Below are positions 25,632 to 47,427 of a stretch of DNA of 64,000 nucleotides, piece by piece (positions within the stretch are counted from its first letter, which is position 1; every line of letters starts with the position of its first letter). The DNA comes from an uncultured Chloroflexia bacterium (GTDB lineage: Bacteria; Chloroflexota; Chloroflexia; QHBQ01; JADMIH01). Both the position numbers and the translations under genes were made by a program. The DNA lies in assembly GCA_963797095.1 (NCBI GenBank), contig CAWCNY010000006.1:960001-1024000 (forward strand), given 5' to 3'. The notes under the pieces were generated by a model. That model made no database searches and had not been told where the DNA came from. It saw only the letters and a list, made by a program, of their open reading frames with translations.

Positions 25632-25634
25632 CAC

Positions 25635-25809
25635 TATGCACGTGGGAGAGCCTCTCGTTTCAAAGCTGGAGCGCCGAAGGGGCAAGGCAGGATTGCCGAA
25701 ACTCTCAGGTAAATCGGACCGCGTGCATACAACCCTCTGGAGAGTTCCCTATGGAACGCCCACGGAGCAAAGCCGGAAACGGCTAATCTCACAGGCCTAA
25801 GGACAGAGG
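25635..25809 (+). ncRNA. Tandem glycine riboswitch
   Basis: Aptamer 1 GGAGAG..CGCCGAAGGGGCAA..ACTCTCAGG with P1 tatgcacgtgg/ccgcgtgcata; aptamer 2 CTCTGGAGAG..GGAGCAA..CTCACAGG..GGACAGAGG; upstream of gcvT. Confidence 0.92.
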
Positions 25810-40037: not shown

Positions 40038-41564
40038 TCAATCGAGCACCAGATCGTGAGGGCCGCTTTCGCGCAGACCGGCAGGAGTGATGCGAACGAA
40101 GCGGGCATTTTGCCAAAGTTGATCGAGGTTGTGAGCATTGGAATAGCTCATGCCTGAGCGCAGCCCACCGACCAATTGGAAAAGGACTTCACGAGCAGGT
40201 CCGCGATAGGGGACCATAGCTTCCACGCCCTCGGCGACCACCTGGGATAGCCACTCGTCATCTTCCTGGCGGGTTATGTCCGTAAGCTCTTGTTCACGCT
40301 TCTTGCGGGCGACCGTGGCGCTGACAGAAGCCATACCCCGGAAGGTCTTGTAGCGCCCGCCTCGGCGAGTGACGATCTGACCAGGGCTTTCATCGGTGCC
40401 TGCGAGAAGAGAGCCTATCATGACGGTGGATGCACCTGCGGCGAGAGCTTTGGCGATGTCCCCGGAGGTCTTGATGCCACCATCAGCGATGAGCGGTACG
40501 CCGCGCTTATGGCAGACATCGGCGCATTCCATTACGGCTGTTAACTGAGGCACGCCCGCACCCGTGACGATGCGGGTGGTGCAGGCAGCGCCGGGACCGA
40601 CGCCAACTTTTACGGCGTCTACGCCCGCCTCAATGAGGTCGAGCGCGCCTTCGCGCGTGGCGACGTTGCCAGCGATTACATCTATGTTGGGCCAGCGCTC
40701 CTTTAGCCCCTGGACTACAGAGATGACAGCCTCAGAATGTCCATGGGCTACATCCACTACCAGCACGTCCGTGCCTGCGTCGAGAAGGGCCTCCGCGCGC
40801 TCCATTGCGTCATCCGTGACACCGATGGCCGCGCCCACCAGAAGATGACCGCGGCGGTCTTTGATGCCCTGGGGGTTATCTCCTGAGTGAGCGAGGTCGT
40901 AGGCGGTGATGAGACCAACGACACGACCATCTTCGACAAGAGGAAGCTTTTCGATCTTATGCCGCGCAAATAGCTCAGAAGCTTCTTCGAATGAGATATC
41001 GGCTGGAGCTGTGACAAGTTTCTGGCGAGGGGTCATTACGTCGCCTACGGCAAGGTCCGGATTACGGACGAAGCGCACATCGCGGGCCGAGAGAAGGCCG
41101 GCAAGCCTGCCTGCATCGTCGACCACTACAAGGCCCGAAACATCGCGTCGCTCCATCGCGGCACGGGCGCGTTCGACCGTCTCATCTGGGGAGATGGTAT
41201 AGGGTTGAGGGATTACGAAGGACTCGGCGCGTTTGACGCGGCGAACCTCGTCGGCCTGGGCCGCTATGGGGAGGAAGCGGTGGATAATGCCTATGCCACC
41301 CTGGCGGGCCATCTCGATTGCCATGGCGTGCTCCGTGACGGTGTCCATATTAGCGGAAACGATAGGGATGTTGAGGCGGACGTTGCATGAGAGGAGGGTG
41401 GTGGTGGATACATCACGCCGCGACTTCACGGTAGTGCGTTGAGGGACGAGGAGGACATCGTCATAACTGAGGCCGAGAGGGATGTCGGATTTTGGGCTTT
41501 GGATCTTGGATTTTGGATTATGTGAGTTGGTTTTGCGGTTATTGGTGTCGCGGGTGGTCGGCAT
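40038..41564 (-). CDS. guaB: IMP dehydrogenase with CBS pair
   Basis: [38 protein letters not shown]; ATG 41564 with AAGGAG and upstream TGcTATAAT (41593-41601). Confidence 0.95.
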
Positions 41565-41620
41565 TATAGGTGCTCCTTGGGTGTTCTGGTGAATTATAGC
41601 AGTTATGTAGGAGCATGGAC

Positions 41621-41642
41621 CATTCAAACAGTTGTTTGAATG
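41621..41642. promoter_or_regulatory. Perfect palindrome, candidate operator in the guaB divergent region
   Basis: CATTCAAACA-GT-TGTTTGAATG. Confidence 0.5.
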
Positions 41643-42977
41643 AGGTCTGTACCTTGAGGAAGCGTGTGTATCCCGGTAAGCTGAAGGCGCAAGCTGTATA
41701 ATTGGCCCGAAAACATACGGCTTTCAGAGAGTTCACACTGTGCAAAGTAACTCAACCTCGTTCTCAGGAGAACCGACGCCTTACTCCCGCGTCCATCTAG
41801 TGATCTTTGCCTGCATTCTGGTTGTCTATGCTATTACCATTAGCGTTTACAACCTGAGCATCCCGGTAGGCGAAGCACCTGATGAGGTGGCGCATATTGA
41901 GAATGTACAGGTGATCTTGCGTAGTGGCGAATTACCGACGATACCTCTCGATTCACCGCGTTATTCCTACGAAGCCGAACAGCCACCTTTGTACTATTTG
42001 TTTGAGGCTGGTTGGATCGGATTACTCTGGCCTGGTCTTGCCTTCCATGGGTCTGGTTGCCTTCCTCCCAGGATTCGGGTTTACTTCTGCTACAGTAAAT
42101 AATGATGCGCTTGCAGCTACCGGAGGTGCAGCGGTCGTGTTCATGTGTGTATATACTCCGGAAGGGTGTAAACAGCAGGGTGGCACTGTCGACAGGCATG
42201 GTATTGGGGCTGGGTCTGTTGGCAAAGCATTCTTTGTTGGTGCTGGCGCCCCTTGTGATGGCTCTGCCGTTTTTCCTACTTATGAGTAAGTGGCCGGAAA
42301 GACGCTCAAGAACAAGAGAAGCAATATTGATGTCGGCTATGGTGCTACTGGGGACGGTGGTTGTAGGGGTGTGGCCGTTTGCCAGTGATTTTGTTGAGTA
42401 TGGCGACCCATTTGCAAGCGCTGCAACGGCGGCAGTCAAGAATGAGATCGCTTCACCATTGCAAGGGAAGCCGGGGTTCTGGCTTTCACCGGGGTATTTC
42501 ATCGGGCTGTACAACTCGTTCTGGGGCACATTCGGCATTCGCAATATTGACCTACCGAATCTGCTTTACGCTGGATACTATGTGTTGTTCTTGTTATCGG
42601 TGATAAGTCTGGTGTTGAACCGTAAGAAGGTACTGCGACAGGAGCGCGGCACCATATGGGTCTGCCTGGCGGTGCTGCTGTTGGTGAATATAGGAGTAGG
42701 GTACCAGAATACCCAGTTTTGGGCCGTACAAGGCAGACTTCTGTTACCTGCGGCAGCCGCGTTAGCTTTACTCATTGGAAGGGGCTTCGTCTTGATAGGC
42801 GGGCGTATTCTACCTGAAGGCCGTTCTCGGTACTACGCGCTAGTACTAGTTTGTGGTGCGAAATGCGGTCGCAAGGCCCGGAGCAGCACGTGACACTGCC
42901 ATCAAGACTGATATTTCGCACCATCGTGTTTCTGGGTGTCGTAGGTTGGCACTTGGCACATCGCCACCTAATCTGGT

Positions 42978-44614
42978 TCACGCCGCTTGCTTCCTCACCG
43001 CTATCCCAGCCCTGGTCCTGGCTCCGACCCTGGCTCCAGCCCTGCGTTGTGCTGCCCGTGCTATCTGTGTATCAGCGATCTTCCCCAGGTTCGCTGTCAC
43101 AATACCCCACCCTACCCTTCGCCACATCCCCTCCTCCTCGTGATCCCGACCTGTCTCCAGCCCGTAATCCCTCTTCAGCACCCAAATCCGCCCTTCGATC
43201 CCCGCTCGGAACCGGAACCCGCATCTGAACCAGCGCTGATGTTCCAGTGCCTGTCTCTCCTTGCTCACTCGCCCAGTGTGTGGCAACACAATCCGCTTCA
43301 CCCCCAGTTGGCGTGCCAACGCCTCGTTCGCCCTCGAATAGGTGCCACGATCTCCAGCCAGCATGTCCGGTGGGTGCCCGAAACGCTCTTGATGTGTGGC
43401 TAAGCTTCTCGGCAGTTCCATCAGGTCCAAGCCCCCGCCCTCGTCCATCAATCGATACTCGCTGATGATCCCTCCCTCAACTTCCCCCAACCACACTTTG
43501 CGTCCGAATTCGGTTGGCTTGCCTGCCTTGTGACGCTGGATGACCTGGGTGTGCGGTTCAAACAGAGAGCGCAACTTCTCGCCACTTCGAACCGCTATTA
43601 AGGATAACCCTGATACGGCTTATGATAGTTCAAACAGAGAGAGCAACTTCTCGCCACTTCGAACAGGTTCGCCCTGCAGCACTCGGCGTCGAGCCTGCTC
43701 TATCGCCTGCCCACCAGAGGCAGAAAGTGCTCCAACTGCTCGATGATGCGCCTTACCTGCCCCTGCCGTGCCCGGGTTGCAGAGTGCTCGGTAAGCTTGG
43801 CCCTGGAGAAGGTGTCGGCGAGGGTGGCGAGAGCATCGTGCACTTGATTCGCCTGCTTGGCAGTGGCCTGGGCGATACCCAGCAGCCTGGCATAGGCTGC
43901 CTTGAGTTGCTCGGCAGCCTCTTCCCCTTTGCGGCGGGCCACCCGATGAAGTTGTTGAGCGATACGCCGGACCGAGCGGGTACGGCTGCGAAATGCCCCT
44001 TTCAGGCCGCCCTTCAGGATGGTCGTCCCTATGGTCGTCCCTTCTCCCACTTCTCCCAGCTTTTCTCCCAGCACGGTTTTGGCTTTGTGCAACAGCCGAC
44101 TGAGCACACGAACTCCATCACCAACAATGGCGCTGTCTGTTGGATAATGGATATTGGTCTGCACAACGGTGCTGTCCACGCGCAGTTTGCGCCCCCTAGT
44201 CACCTTGAGTTGAGTGGCCAACTCCACTACTCGATCGTTGACCCTGGCAAGAGTATCCGGACCGACAAGGTTGGCCCATCGGATGAGAGTGGTATCGTCG
44301 GGGACGGGCTGGAGATAGAGGCGGCAGAACTGGCGTAAGACCAGGCTATCCGAGACGAAGTGTTCGGTTTGTTCGTAGCTCCAATCGTACAGGCGGCGAA
44401 CGATGAGCATACGCAGGATCACCTCAACTGGGGTGGAGTGACGCCCCCTAACCAGGGTGTGAGGATAACGCTTAGCCAGGTCAGCCTTGACCTGCTCGAA
44501 GATCTCATCGTCTTTTAGCAACTGGTCCAACTCAGCTAGCTCCGGTTCCATCTCCAATTGCAACTTGGGCACCAGTTCAAAGAGGTTTACAGGGTCATAT
44601 CGTTCGATTATCAC
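42978..44614 (-). pseudogene. IS5/ISNCY-like DDE transposase, broken
   Basis: GRHSTP, VPDDTTL, RVDSTVV..NIHYPTD, SLFEPH, EFGRK, AGDRG, RAGIEGRI; frameshift near 43710 and a 72-bp insertion at 43556-43664. Confidence 0.88.
43556..43664. CRISPR. Minimal CRISPR-like unit (two 37-bp repeats, one 35-bp spacer) inside the transposase gene
   Basis: GTTCAAACAGAGAG(C/A)GCAACTTCTCGCCACTTCGAAC at 43556-43592 and 43628-43664; spacer cgctattaaggataaccctgatacggcttatgata; no cas genes in the window. Confidence 0.45.
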
Positions 44615-44985
44615 GTTATTGAGCCTCCGGTTGAGTTTTGGATCATGGGCAACTTAATCCTAACTCACCAAGGCTCATCTTGTCATTTCGCACCCCAAAC
44701 TAATACTAGGCGTGTTGCTGTGCGCGCTAATTGTAGCGGATTGGTATGCGCTGATCGTGTATGTGCTTCAAGTCTATTATGGCTGACGGGTATATTTGAG
44801 GCCCTGCCCAGCCCAACTGAAAGATTGAAAGGGTCGTTTTCTTTTATAATAGTCCCATGTTTGTCGTAGCCAGCAATAAAATGAAATAAGAACAGGTTAT
44901 TCGTTATCGGCACCAAACCTAGCGAAGCATAGCACCGGATGGCGAAACCCGCCGGCTATCCGGGTAGCGGAGAGGAGATACTACT

Positions 44986-47427
44986 GTGTTTGAGTTTGAT
45001 ACAGCTATTTCCAGCGTTGTGGAGGTACAGGGGGAACTGCAACCACGATCTTCTGGCGAGCCAATTGAGGGACCATTGTCGGCGGAGATGCTGGATAAGA
45101 TGCAAAGGTACTGGCAGGCAGCTAACTACCTGACAGTTGGACAGATCTATTTGCAGACAAACCCTCTTTTGAGGGAGCAATTGAAGCCTGAGCATATCAA
45201 GCCACGGTTGCTGGGTCACTGGGGTACTTCGCCGGGGCTTAGCTTCATCTATGTGCATCTGAACCGGCTGATCAACGAGCATGATGCTAATGTGATCTAC
45301 CTGGCGGGGCCGGGGCACGGAGGGCCTGCGATCGTCGCCAATGTGTACCTTGAGGGAACTTATTCGCAGATATATCAGGAGGTCACTCAGGACATGTCGG
45401 GGATGCGGCGGCTTTTCCGGCAATTCTCGACACCAGGTGGAATACCGAGCCATGTGAGCGTGACCACGCCCGGATCAATTCACGAGGGGGGTGAGCTTGG
45501 GTATGTGCTGGCACACGCATTCGGGGCGGCGTTCGACAACCCCGACCTGATAGTGGCGGCTGTAGTGGGAGATGGCGAGGCAGAGACCGGACCGTTGATG
45601 GCATCGTGGAGAGGGACTAGCTTCCTCAACCCGGCACGAGATGGGGCAGTGCTCCCGATCCTGCACCTGAACGGCTACAAGATCGGCGGGCCGACGGTAC
45701 TAGGGCGCGACTCGGACGAGGATGTGCGTGCTACGATCGAGGGGAACGGATATGATGTGTATTTCGTGGAAGGCGATGAACCTGCCAGGATGCACCAGCA
45801 GTTCGCCGCCACCCTGGAGACGTGCTATGCACGCATTCGTGCTATCCAGGAGGACGCGCGGAAGAACGGTGTAAGCGGGCGGCCACGGTGGCCTGCTATT
45901 GTGCTGCGAACACCAAAGGGTTGGACCGGGCCGGCGGTGGTAGGTGGAATGCCGATTGAAGGAACGTTCCGAGCGCATCAGGTGCCGTTGAGCGACGTTC
46001 GGGGAGAGCCAAAGCAATTGGAGCAACTGGAAGAGTGGATGCGCAGCTACCAGCCTGATGATGTGTTTGATGTGAACGGGAAACTGATAGCAGAACTGGG
46101 CGCGCTTGCGCCGCGCGGGCTGAGACGGATGGGGTCCAATCCACACGCCAATGGAGGGAAACTGCTGGTAACATTGCGAGTGCCTGACTTTCGCAAATAC
46201 GCCCTGGAGGTGGCAAAACCTGCGACCGAGTGTGCCGAGTTGACGAGGCAACTGGGGAAGTTGATGCGGGACATCTATGTACAAAACGCCCAGGATGCCA
46301 ACTTCCGTCTCTTCTGCCCGGACGAAACCAACTCTAACCGCCTTGGCAACGTATTCGAGATAGAGAATCGCTGCTTCGTGGGCGAAACGATCTCGATTGA
46401 CGATCATGTATCGCCCAATGGGCGGGTGATGGAGGTACTCAGCGAGCATCTTTGCGAAGGTTGGTTGGAGGGATACTTGCTTACCGGGCGGCACGGCCTG
46501 TTCGCTACTTATGAAGCATTCTCGATGGTGTCGGCTTCGATGACGGTGCAGCATACAAAGTGGATGCAGGAGGCAATTGAGCTACCGTGGCGGGAGTTGA
46601 TCGCGTCGTTGAATATCCTGTTGACTTCGACTTGCTGGCGGAACGACCACAACGGATTCAGCCATCAAGGGCCGGGGCTGATCGATGTGATGCTGTCGAA
46701 GCGGGGCACTGTAGCGCGCATCTACCTGCCGCCTGACGCGAATTGCCTGCTGTCGGTGGCAGATCATTGCTTCAGGAGTCGCAACTATGTGAACCTGATC
46801 GTGATCGACAAGCAGCCTCAGCTTCAGTGGCTCGACATGGACTCGGCTATAGAACACTGCGAGCGCGGGGCCTCGATATGGCATTGGGCGAGCAACGACA
46901 ATGGTGAGGAGCCGGATGTGGTGCTGGCGTGCGCGGGTGATATCGTGACTATGGAGATCGTGGCGGCGGCGTGGTGGCTGCGGAAGAACATACCGGAACT
47001 GAAGGTGCGGGTGGTGAACGTTGTGGACCTGATGACGCTCTTTCCGCCTGCCTTCCACCCGCATGGTATGAACGAAACTGACTTCGTGAATATGTTCACG
47101 GCGGATAAGGATGTAATCTTCGCTTTCCACGGGTACCAGCGGGCGATACACCAGATCATACATGGGCGGGCGAACCCGGAACGCTTCCATGTTCGCGGAT
47201 TCAACGAGCAAGGGACGACCACCACACCGTTCGATATGGTGGTGCTGAACAAGACAAGCCGGTATGACCTGGTGAACGATGTGGTGAATAACGTGCCCAA
47301 GATGCGGCAGCGCAGGCCGGAGATCAATGACATCTGCGACCAGTTGCTCGCCAGGGCAAAGGCGTATTCGCTTGAGCATCTTGAAGACCCGCCGGAGATC
47401 CGCGATTGGGTATGGACCGACGATTGA
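44986..47427 (+). CDS. xfp: Xylulose-5-phosphate/fructose-6-phosphate phosphoketolase
   Basis: [38 protein letters not shown]. Confidence 0.95.

What the first reader, a model, noticed from the sequence alone, without database searches (positions are those of the whole stretch)
43556..43664. CRISPR-geometry repeat-spacer-repeat inside a transposase gene: candidate natural ectopic Cas1-Cas2 integration (neo-CRISPR)
Seen: 37 bp of ordinary transposase coding sequence (VRSGEKLLSLFE; minus strand GTTCGAAGTGGCGAGAAGTTGCTCTCTCTGTTTGAAC) is duplicated with 1 mismatch. The copies flank a 35-bp non-transposase insert of 40% GC (14/35) that brings in a stop codon. Removing one repeat plus the insert restores ...QGEPVRSGEKL.SLFEPHTQV. 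The unit starts GTT, ends TTGAAC and has self-complementary ends, like 36-37-bp CRISPR repeats. Established: Cas1-Cas2 inserts a fixed-length spacer and duplicates the target repeat, and off-target integration at repeat-like sites has been shown experimentally; IS target duplications are far shorter than 37 bp. Inference: a host CRISPR integrase hit a repeat-mimicking site, disabling the IS and creating a one-spacer array that could travel on a mobile element.
Basis: partly seen in the sequence, partly recalled or inferred. Interest (0 to 1): 0.85.

Follow-up and report, generated by a model that had tools for sequence, protein, structure and literature searches.

The report
Fossil CRISPR-style insertion in a transposon
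A jumping gene in a soil bacterium carries a 72-base scar shaped exactly like one CRISPR spacer acquisition, probably a rare natural case of the CRISPR integrase hitting the wrong target, although this genome has no CRISPR system today.

Summary
Window 43556-43592 and 43628-43664 are 37-nt direct repeats with one mismatch. They flank a 35-nt insert of 40% GC that carries a stop codon, inside the transposase of a 1870-bp IS (42840-44709).

- A second IS copy, 99.8% identical, sits on another contig with the same scar.
- The transposase also has a 1-nt frameshift.
- The genome (93% complete) has no cas1, no cas2, no other cas homolog and no arrays.

Evidence for Cas1-Cas2:
- All six arrays found beside cas1 in related genomes have 37-nt repeats, with spacers of 33-43 nt.
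- The termini of the duplicated 37-mer match those repeats' termini better than 99.98% of genome 37-mers do.
- The homologous site is uninterrupted in 114 of 114 related IS loci, in G003 and in one soil contig. None of the 115 assembled sites has repeat-like ends.
- No other isolated duplication with unrelated filler exists in the genome.

Evidence against: no leader resemblance, no protospacer found, a single event, and no integrase present.

Verdict: a fossil off-target Cas1-Cas2 integration, made in a cas-bearing ancestor or earlier host and then carried by the IS (confidence about 0.62). It is a new natural member of a kind known from experiment.

The parts
42840..44709 (-). Insertion sequence, 1870 bp, IS5-like (DUF772 plus weak DDE_Tnp_1 transposase). 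A second copy lies at G000:C2:121534-123402.
   Evidence: 26-nt terminal inverted repeats (I1). The second copy is 99.84% identical over 1869 nt with unrelated flanks.
42840..42865 (.). Terminal inverted repeat, the arm at the 3' end of the transposase strand
   Evidence: I1: 92% complementary to 44684-44709.
44684..44709 (.). Terminal inverted repeat, the arm at the 5' end of the transposase strand
   Evidence: I1.
43700..44614 (-). N-terminal transposase fragment (304 aa, DUF772), ended by a stop after a 1-nt deletion
   Evidence: ORF. PF05598, E 3.5e-13. One search shows the frame change. One search shows a 1-nt gap relative to G003.
43705..43712 (-). Approximate position of the 1-nt deletion (frameshift) in the transposase
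   Evidence: Alignment A1. The X4 contig has one extra base after 43711.
43628..43664 (-). 37-nt repeat copy A, upstream on the coding strand. It keeps the ancestral CTC (Leu) codon.
   Evidence: D1. Searches show that relatives read EKLLSLFE.
43593..43627 (.). 35-nt spacer-like insert, 40% GC, source unknown. It brings in a TAA stop at 43620-43622 (minus strand).
   Evidence: No match elsewhere.
43556..43592 (-). 37-nt repeat copy B, downstream on the coding strand. It carries one substitution (CGC, Arg).
   Evidence: D1..
42978..43574 (-). C-terminal transposase fragment (198-aa ORF, the catalytic half)
   Evidence: ORF. It is 77% identical to the best metagenome relative. The homologous part of the intact G003 protein gives a weak DDE_Tnp_1 hit.

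Best explanation
The 72-nt scar is the product of one off-target spacer integration by a Cas1-Cas2 integrase of the type I-B-like kind found in this organism's relatives. Inferred mechanism: the integrase made its two staggered strand-transfer attacks at the two borders of a 37-bp stretch of transposase coding sequence whose ends mimic repeat ends (GTT...AAC). It joined a 35-nt prespacer there, and gap repair duplicated the 37 bp. That gives repeat-spacer-repeat with a 72-nt period. This happened in an ancestor or earlier host that had the system. One repeat copy then picked up a substitution, and at an unknown point the transposase lost one base. After the integration and the substitution, the IS was copied to a second locus. 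The present genome has no adaptation genes, so the structure is an inert one-spacer fossil, not a working array. Shown: the anatomy, the empty sites, the match of dimensions and termini to the clade's arrays, the absence of cas genes, and the second copy. Inferred: the enzyme, the order of some events, and where the event took place.
For: (1) Exact geometry: 37-nt duplication plus 35-nt unrelated insert.
(2) Fourteen regions around cas1 genes of genomes in the same order were fetched. Arrays were found in 6, and all 6 have 37-nt repeats with periods of 71-76 nt. One of the six is the only congener with cas1 (G005), whose locus is type I-B-like: Cas8b1, Cas7, Cas5b, Cas3, Cas1, Cas2, Cas4. The 121 spacers measured in 4 of these arrays are 33-43 nt long, and 15 of them are 35 nt.
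(3) Scored on the first and last 7 nt against a matrix of the six repeats, the duplicated 37-mer is reached by only 4.5e-5 (plus orientation) or 2.3e-4 (minus orientation) of 12.04 million genome 37-mers. GTT-N31-AAC occurs at a frequency of 1.7e-4.
(4) The homologous site is single-copy in 114 of 114 related IS loci, in G003 and in a roughly 94%-identical soil contig that skips exactly 43556-43627.
(5) None of the 115 homologous sites (the 114 loci plus G003) has GTT...AAC ends. Their best end score is 1.89 and the median is -9.77, against 9.53/6.14 here. The only lineage hit is the one whose site mimics a repeat.
(6) The insert has no source in the genome (best 13 nt), and it matches neither flank (identity 0.17 and 0.17). 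This rules out tandem duplication and local template switching.
(7) No other isolated duplication with unrelated filler exists in the 6.0-Mb genome.
(8) The phenomenon has precedent: off-target integration creating new arrays in E. coli (Nivala et al. 2018, known to me only through citing passages).
Against: - The genome has no Cas1 and no Cas2, and no homolog of any ORF that NCBIfam named as cas in G005. It also has no arrays or orphan clade-type repeats. It is 93% complete.
- Only 1 of 25 congeners has cas1.
- The flanks do not resemble the clade's leaders: 18th to 56th percentile of genome positions, in both orientations. They lack the ...GAGGG leader end.
- Whole-length identity to real repeats is only 13-17 of 37, and the whole-length matrix score is in the top 0.3-1.8%.
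- No protospacer was found: 0 in viral contigs (25), 0 in metagenome contigs (28), best phage E-value 0.4 (26), nothing in plasmids (27), 0 of 400 other phylum genomes at 3 mismatches or fewer (51).
- The insert's 40% GC lies in the low tail of real spacers: 0-6% of spacers per array are at or below 40%.
- There is one event and one spacer.
- The finding was picked from a very large scan because it looked CRISPR-like, so the end motif is partly a selection effect.
- I chose the 7+7 window after having seen the sequences.
- A defective IS in two copies needs a transposase supplied in trans, and none is present now.
Confidence: 0.62

Rival explanations
1. The scar is a footprint of another mobile element or integrase unrelated to CRISPR. 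An element that makes a long (37-bp) target duplication inserted here, and was later almost entirely deleted, leaving 35 bp of its ends between the duplicated target.
For: The structure is formally a target-site duplication around foreign, low-GC DNA. The genome lacks Cas1-Cas2. Some IS families are reported to make long, variable duplications (recalled, not checked here).
Against: It needs two rare events. No element in the genome has termini matching the 35-mer (best 13-nt internal match). It would not predict that the duplication equals the clade's repeat length, that the remnant falls in the spacer range, or that the ends match repeat termini.
Confidence: 0.2
2. The scar is a repair or replication accident. 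A break or stalled fork in the transposase gene was repaired with a 37-nt duplication and 35 nt of untemplated or distantly templated filler, for example by end joining or template switching. The CRISPR-like sizes are coincidence.
For: No integrase is present. No leader resemblance. No protospacer. The scan that produced the finding looked at very many windows, so coincidences are expected.
Against: No template for the filler exists in the genome. No other event of this class occurs in 6.0 Mb. The exact 37, the in-range 35 and the rare GTT...AAC termini (1.7e-4; end score reached by 4.5e-5 to 2.3e-4 of 37-mers) would all have to be chance. The site is the only one of 116 homologs with such termini.
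Confidence: 0.13
3. It is an assembly or sequencing artefact.
For: No independent contig spans the 43592/43593 junction. X1 may be the sample the genome came from.
Against: The same structure is assembled at two loci with different flanks. A 100%-identical metagenome contig crosses the other junction. The mismatch between the repeat copies is the same in both IS copies.
Confidence: 0.03

Closest known systems
Neo-CRISPR loci from off-target Cas1-Cas2 integration in E. coli type I-E (Nivala, Shipman & Church 2018, Nat Microbiol 3:310). The paper was not held, so I know it only through citing passages.
   Same: A spacer-length insert sits between two copies of a repeat-length genomic segment, outside any array.
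   Different: Here the event is natural, not driven by overproduced integrase. The dimensions are 37/35, matching type I-B-like arrays, whereas I recall (not checked here) shorter repeats and spacers for the type I-E system. It sits in a transposase gene and was then copied with the IS. The genome no longer has the integrase. Per, natural evidence in that paper was called 'circumstantial' and limited to two other species.
Canonical type I-B-like CRISPR arrays of relatives (G005, G030, G035, G036, G029; G026 is unpublished)
   Same: 37-nt repeat, 33-43-nt spacers, repeat termini of the form (G/C)TT...GAAAC.
   Different: One spacer only. No leader. No adjacent cas genes. The interior of the repeat is unrelated (13-17 of 37 identical). 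The repeat is protein-coding sequence.
Target-site duplications of transposable elements, including casposons (about 14-15 bp) and IS families with long duplications (both recalled, not checked here)
   Same: A direct duplication of the target flanks inserted DNA, and implies staggered cuts.
   Different: The insert is only 35 nt and has no terminal inverted repeats or gene. The 37-bp stagger equals the clade's CRISPR repeat length.

Membership tests
Off-target Cas1-Cas2 integration product (neo-CRISPR) | Exact duplication of a repeat-length target flanking a spacer-length insert unrelated to the flanks | tested here: met
   37 + 35 nt. Insert identity to either flank is 0.17. The insert has no other genomic copy.
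Off-target Cas1-Cas2 integration product (neo-CRISPR) | Dimensions equal those of a cognate CRISPR system | tested here: met
   6 of 6 arrays beside cas1 in the order have 37-nt repeats. Spacers are 33-43 nt, and 15 of 121 are 35 nt. The cognate system is in relatives, not in this genome.
Off-target Cas1-Cas2 integration product (neo-CRISPR) | Cas1-Cas2 present in the same genome | tested here: not met
   0 matches to PF01867 and PF09827, with positive controls. No tblastn hit for the cas ORFs of G005. Genome 93% complete.
Off-target Cas1-Cas2 integration product (neo-CRISPR) | Target site resembles the repeat at the attacked borders | tested here: met
   End score reached by 4.5e-5 to 2.3e-4 of genome 37-mers. 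0 of 115 homologous sites score as high.
Off-target Cas1-Cas2 integration product (neo-CRISPR) | Unoccupied (empty) allele exists | tested here: met
   114 of 114 related loci, G003, and the X4 contig that skips exactly 72 nt.
Off-target Cas1-Cas2 integration product (neo-CRISPR) | Insert traceable to a protospacer in foreign DNA with a PAM | tested here: not met
   No match (best E 0.4), 27, 28 or 51. The databases are incomplete for soil phages.
Functional CRISPR array | Leader with promoter and integration signals upstream of the first repeat | tested here: not met
   Leader matrix score at the 18th to 56th percentile of genome positions in either orientation.
Functional CRISPR array | Transcription and Cas6 processing into crRNA | not testable with these tools
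   No RNA run was listed. No cas genes are present in the genome.
IS5-like DDE insertion sequence | Terminal inverted repeats and short target duplication | tested here: met
   26-nt inverted repeats, 92% complementary. Flanking CTAG/CTAG at C6 and GTAG/CTAG at C2, read by eye.
IS5-like DDE insertion sequence | Intact DDE transposase | tested here: not met
   Frameshift plus in-frame stop. The intact 479-aa homolog has DUF772 (E 4.4e-12) and DDE_Tnp_1 at 20.9 bits, below the 23-bit cut-off.

The most novel reading that the evidence does not exclude
Insertion sequences can carry Cas1-Cas2-made one-spacer proto-arrays between loci and genomes, so mobile elements could seed new CRISPR arrays. Alternatively, the adaptation machinery can directly knock out a transposase gene by inserting into it, which would be a defence effect that needs no interference. 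Here the scar was created in an IS and then copied to a second locus, which shows the first step (transport) but not any later use.
Probability: 0.1. Interest if true: 0.85.

Novelty: new member of a known kind. Interest (0 to 1): 0.58.

Why it matters
Off-target spacer integration has been shown with overproduced integrase in E. coli. According to a citing preprint, natural evidence was only circumstantial. This case offers a natural example with unusually good controls:
- many empty sites;
- a cognate array geometry known from relatives;
- a target whose repeat-like ends are unique among 116 homologs.

It gives a concrete substrate for testing what a type I-B-like integrase needs to recognise, namely the ends without a leader. 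It also bears on how new arrays arise and on the cost of CRISPR adaptation to the genome. And it shows that such a scar can ride on a mobile element into a genome without CRISPR.

Tried and rejected
- Tandem duplication or local template switching: rejected. The insert matches neither flank (0.17/0.17) nor anything else in the genome.
- Own-genome CRISPR-Cas: none found. My k-mer array finder gave 7 candidates, all tandem or coding repeats. Cas1 and Cas2 searches found nothing. tblastn with 65 ORFs of the G005 and G030 loci gave hits for one weak edge ORF and for 5 ORFs lying beyond the G030 array, none of them named cas. No orphan clade repeats turned up at E<=0.1.
- Leader resemblance: I noticed a shared GCCTCT about 55 nt upstream, but the formal matrix test was unremarkable. 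Dropped.
- RNA fold of the 37-mer: a terminal helix with z = -1.67, and 16 of 200 shuffles fold as well. Not informative.
- Rfam: nothing at the site.
- Protospacer searches: all negative.
- No RNA holder was listed among sequencing runs, so expression was not assessed.
- Parts of the IS had no contig cover in X1-X4, including the 43592/43593 junction. No conclusion drawn from that.
- Two short 3-copy repeats in the cas1 regions are not clearly arrays and were left out of the '6 of 6' count: a 12-nt repeat in L041 and a 26-nt repeat with period 72 in L043. Seven of the 14 regions (L038, L039, L040, L042, L044, L045, L046) gave no repeat candidate at all in the stretch fetched, and most of these are short contigs. 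The cas1 fragment at G035:C3 was not fetched.
- Supplements of papers were not consulted.
- Unpublished genomes: the nucleotide alignment of the empty site and the intact 479-aa ORF rest on G003, and one of the six arrays rests on G026. Without them, the empty site still rests on 114 public loci and X4, and the repeat length on 5 of 5 public arrays.

Full report
**What is there**

Window 43556-43592 and 43628-43664 are 37-nt direct repeats that differ at one base. They are separated by a 35-nt insert with 14/35 G+C. The bases just outside the copies differ, so the sizes are exact.

The structure lies on the minus-strand transposase gene of a 1870-bp insertion sequence, 42840-44709, which is bounded by 26-nt inverted repeats. 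The N-terminal ORF (43700-44614) carries DUF772. An intact 479-aa homolog from a congener has DUF772 plus a sub-threshold DDE_Tnp_1 hit.

The 72 extra bases are in frame but contain a TAA. Independently, the gene has lost one base near 43705-43712, which shifts the frame. A soil contig of a close relative has the extra base there.

**Context in the genome**

The window is G000:C6:960001-1024000, in a 6.02-Mb assembly of 8 contigs with 58% GC, estimated 93% complete.

A second IS copy at C2:121534-123402 is 99.84% identical over 1869 nt. It has the same repeat-insert-repeat, including the same mismatch, and its flanks are unrelated. Each copy sits between short CTAG-like duplications, which I read by eye. 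So the scar predates the last copying of the element. No intact copy of this IS exists in the assembly.

The genome has no Cas1 or Cas2 (the same searches ring in 7 and 6 of 14 control genomes). It has no homolog of the cas ORFs of a congener, no array-like repeats and no orphan repeats of the clade's type.

**Empty sites**

- In G003 (an unpublished congener) a roughly 72%-identical IS has an intact transposase and a single copy of the site. The alignment shows exactly 72 extra bases in the window.
- A soil-metagenome contig about 94% identical (X4) joins 43555 directly to 43628.
- Of 114 related loci fetched from public metagenomes (80) and genomes (34), 114 have the uninterrupted motif ...EKLLSLFEPHTQVI....
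- Relatives read Leu where copy B reads Arg, so copy A keeps the ancestral base.

**Does it match a real CRISPR system?**

Cas1 occurs in 10 of the 39 other genomes of the order: 1 of 25 congeners, 4 of 9 in a second family and 5 of 5 in a third. I fetched 14 regions around these genes. Six held arrays, and all six have 37-nt repeats with periods of 71-76 nt.

The congener G005 has a type I-B-like gene set beside its array. In four of the arrays, 121 spacers measure 33-43 nt, and 15 of them are 35 nt. Spacer GC averages 0.57-0.59, and 0-6% of spacers per array are at or below 0.40.

The 37 + 35 scar therefore has the dimensions of one acquisition by this kind of system, although the insert's GC is in the low tail.

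**Is the target repeat-like?**

Over its whole length it is only weakly so: 13-17 of 37 identities, and a matrix score in the top 0.3-1.8%.

At the ends, where the integrase attacks, the resemblance is strong. With a matrix from the six repeats and only the first and last 7 positions, just 4.5e-5 (plus orientation) or 2.3e-4 (minus) of 12.04 million genome 37-mers score as well. GTT-N31-AAC has a frequency of 1.7e-4.

Among the homologous 37-mers of 115 related IS copies, none has GTT...AAC ends. The best end score is 1.89 and the median is -9.77, against 9.53/6.14 here.

Two caveats apply.

**What does not fit**

- The flanks do not resemble the clade's leaders in either orientation (18th to 56th percentile).
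- No protospacer was found in IMG/VR, GenBank phages (best E 0.4), plasmids, JGI metagenome contigs or 400 other genomes of the phylum at up to 3 mismatches. The insert also does not match any of the 121 clade spacers.
- The integrase is absent from the genome.
- There is only one spacer and one event.

**Rivals**

- Simple tandem duplication and local template switching are excluded, because the insert matches neither flank nor any other genomic sequence.
- A footprint of an unknown element with a 37-bp target duplication, or a repair accident with filler DNA, cannot be excluded. Neither predicts the exact repeat length, the in-range spacer length, the rare termini or the uniqueness of the site among homologs. 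The genome holds no other event of this class.
- An artefact is unlikely. The structure is assembled at two loci, and one junction is crossed by a 100%-identical metagenome contig. The other junction lacks independent support.

**Most likely history (inferred)**

1. In an ancestor or earlier host with a type I-B-like system, Cas1-Cas2 integrated a 35-nt prespacer at a repeat-mimicking 37-bp site in the transposase gene, without help from a leader.
2. One repeat copy then mutated. The 1-nt deletion also arose, at an unknown point.
3. The element was copied to a second locus, presumably by a transposase supplied in trans.
4. The CRISPR system was lost, or was never present in this host.

I put this at about 0.62.

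**Comparison with what is known**

Off-target integration that creates new arrays was shown in E. coli with overproduced Cas1-Cas2 (Nivala et al. 2018). I could not read that paper. I rely on passages in a preprint (10.1101/148544), which says natural evidence was circumstantial in two other species, and on passages in PMC6698737, PMC7054753 and PMC11788318. Two full-text searches listed no paper describing such a scar inside an insertion sequence. I read only the listings and the passages named, so this is not proof that none exists.

The finding is best filed as a new natural member of a known kind.

Noticed in passing
window 43705-43712: A 1-nt deletion shifts the transposase frame independently of the 72-nt insert. 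It is shared by both IS copies. A close relative in a soil contig has the extra base. A doubly defective IS in two near-identical copies implies mobilisation in trans or gene conversion.
   Followed up: partly
window 25633-25731: Glycine riboswitch aptamer (RF00504, 60.8 bits), the only Rfam match in the window.
   Followed up: no
G000 C1:517081, C2:176759, C4:618973: A dispersed minisatellite built from a CTTGCAAGCTCTCCTCT-like unit recurs at several loci on different contigs.
   Followed up: no
L043 3808-3968 (G037:C375): Three copies of a 26-nt repeat with a 72-nt period lie just upstream of a cas1 gene. This may be a degenerate array or a leader feature.
   Followed up: no
L035, L036, L037, L041, L025 (leaders): The leaders of five arrays share a CCTCTCGCAA motif about 50-60 nt upstream of the first repeat, and they end in GAGGG or GGGGG. 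The congener G005's leader has neither. These could be integration signals of this type I-B-like group.
   Followed up: partly
window 44986-47427 and 40038-41627: The IS sits between a phosphoketolase gene (XFP domains, E 4e-165) and, further off, an IMP dehydrogenase gene. The two ORFs next to its left end (41740-42893) have no Pfam match.
   Followed up: partly
L047-L160: This IS family, with its conserved EKLLSLFEPHTQVI motif, is widespread in soil. By record title it occurs in Chloroflexota, Actinomycetes, Planctomycetota (several copies in one Isosphaeraceae genome) and Acidobacteriota.
   Followed up: no
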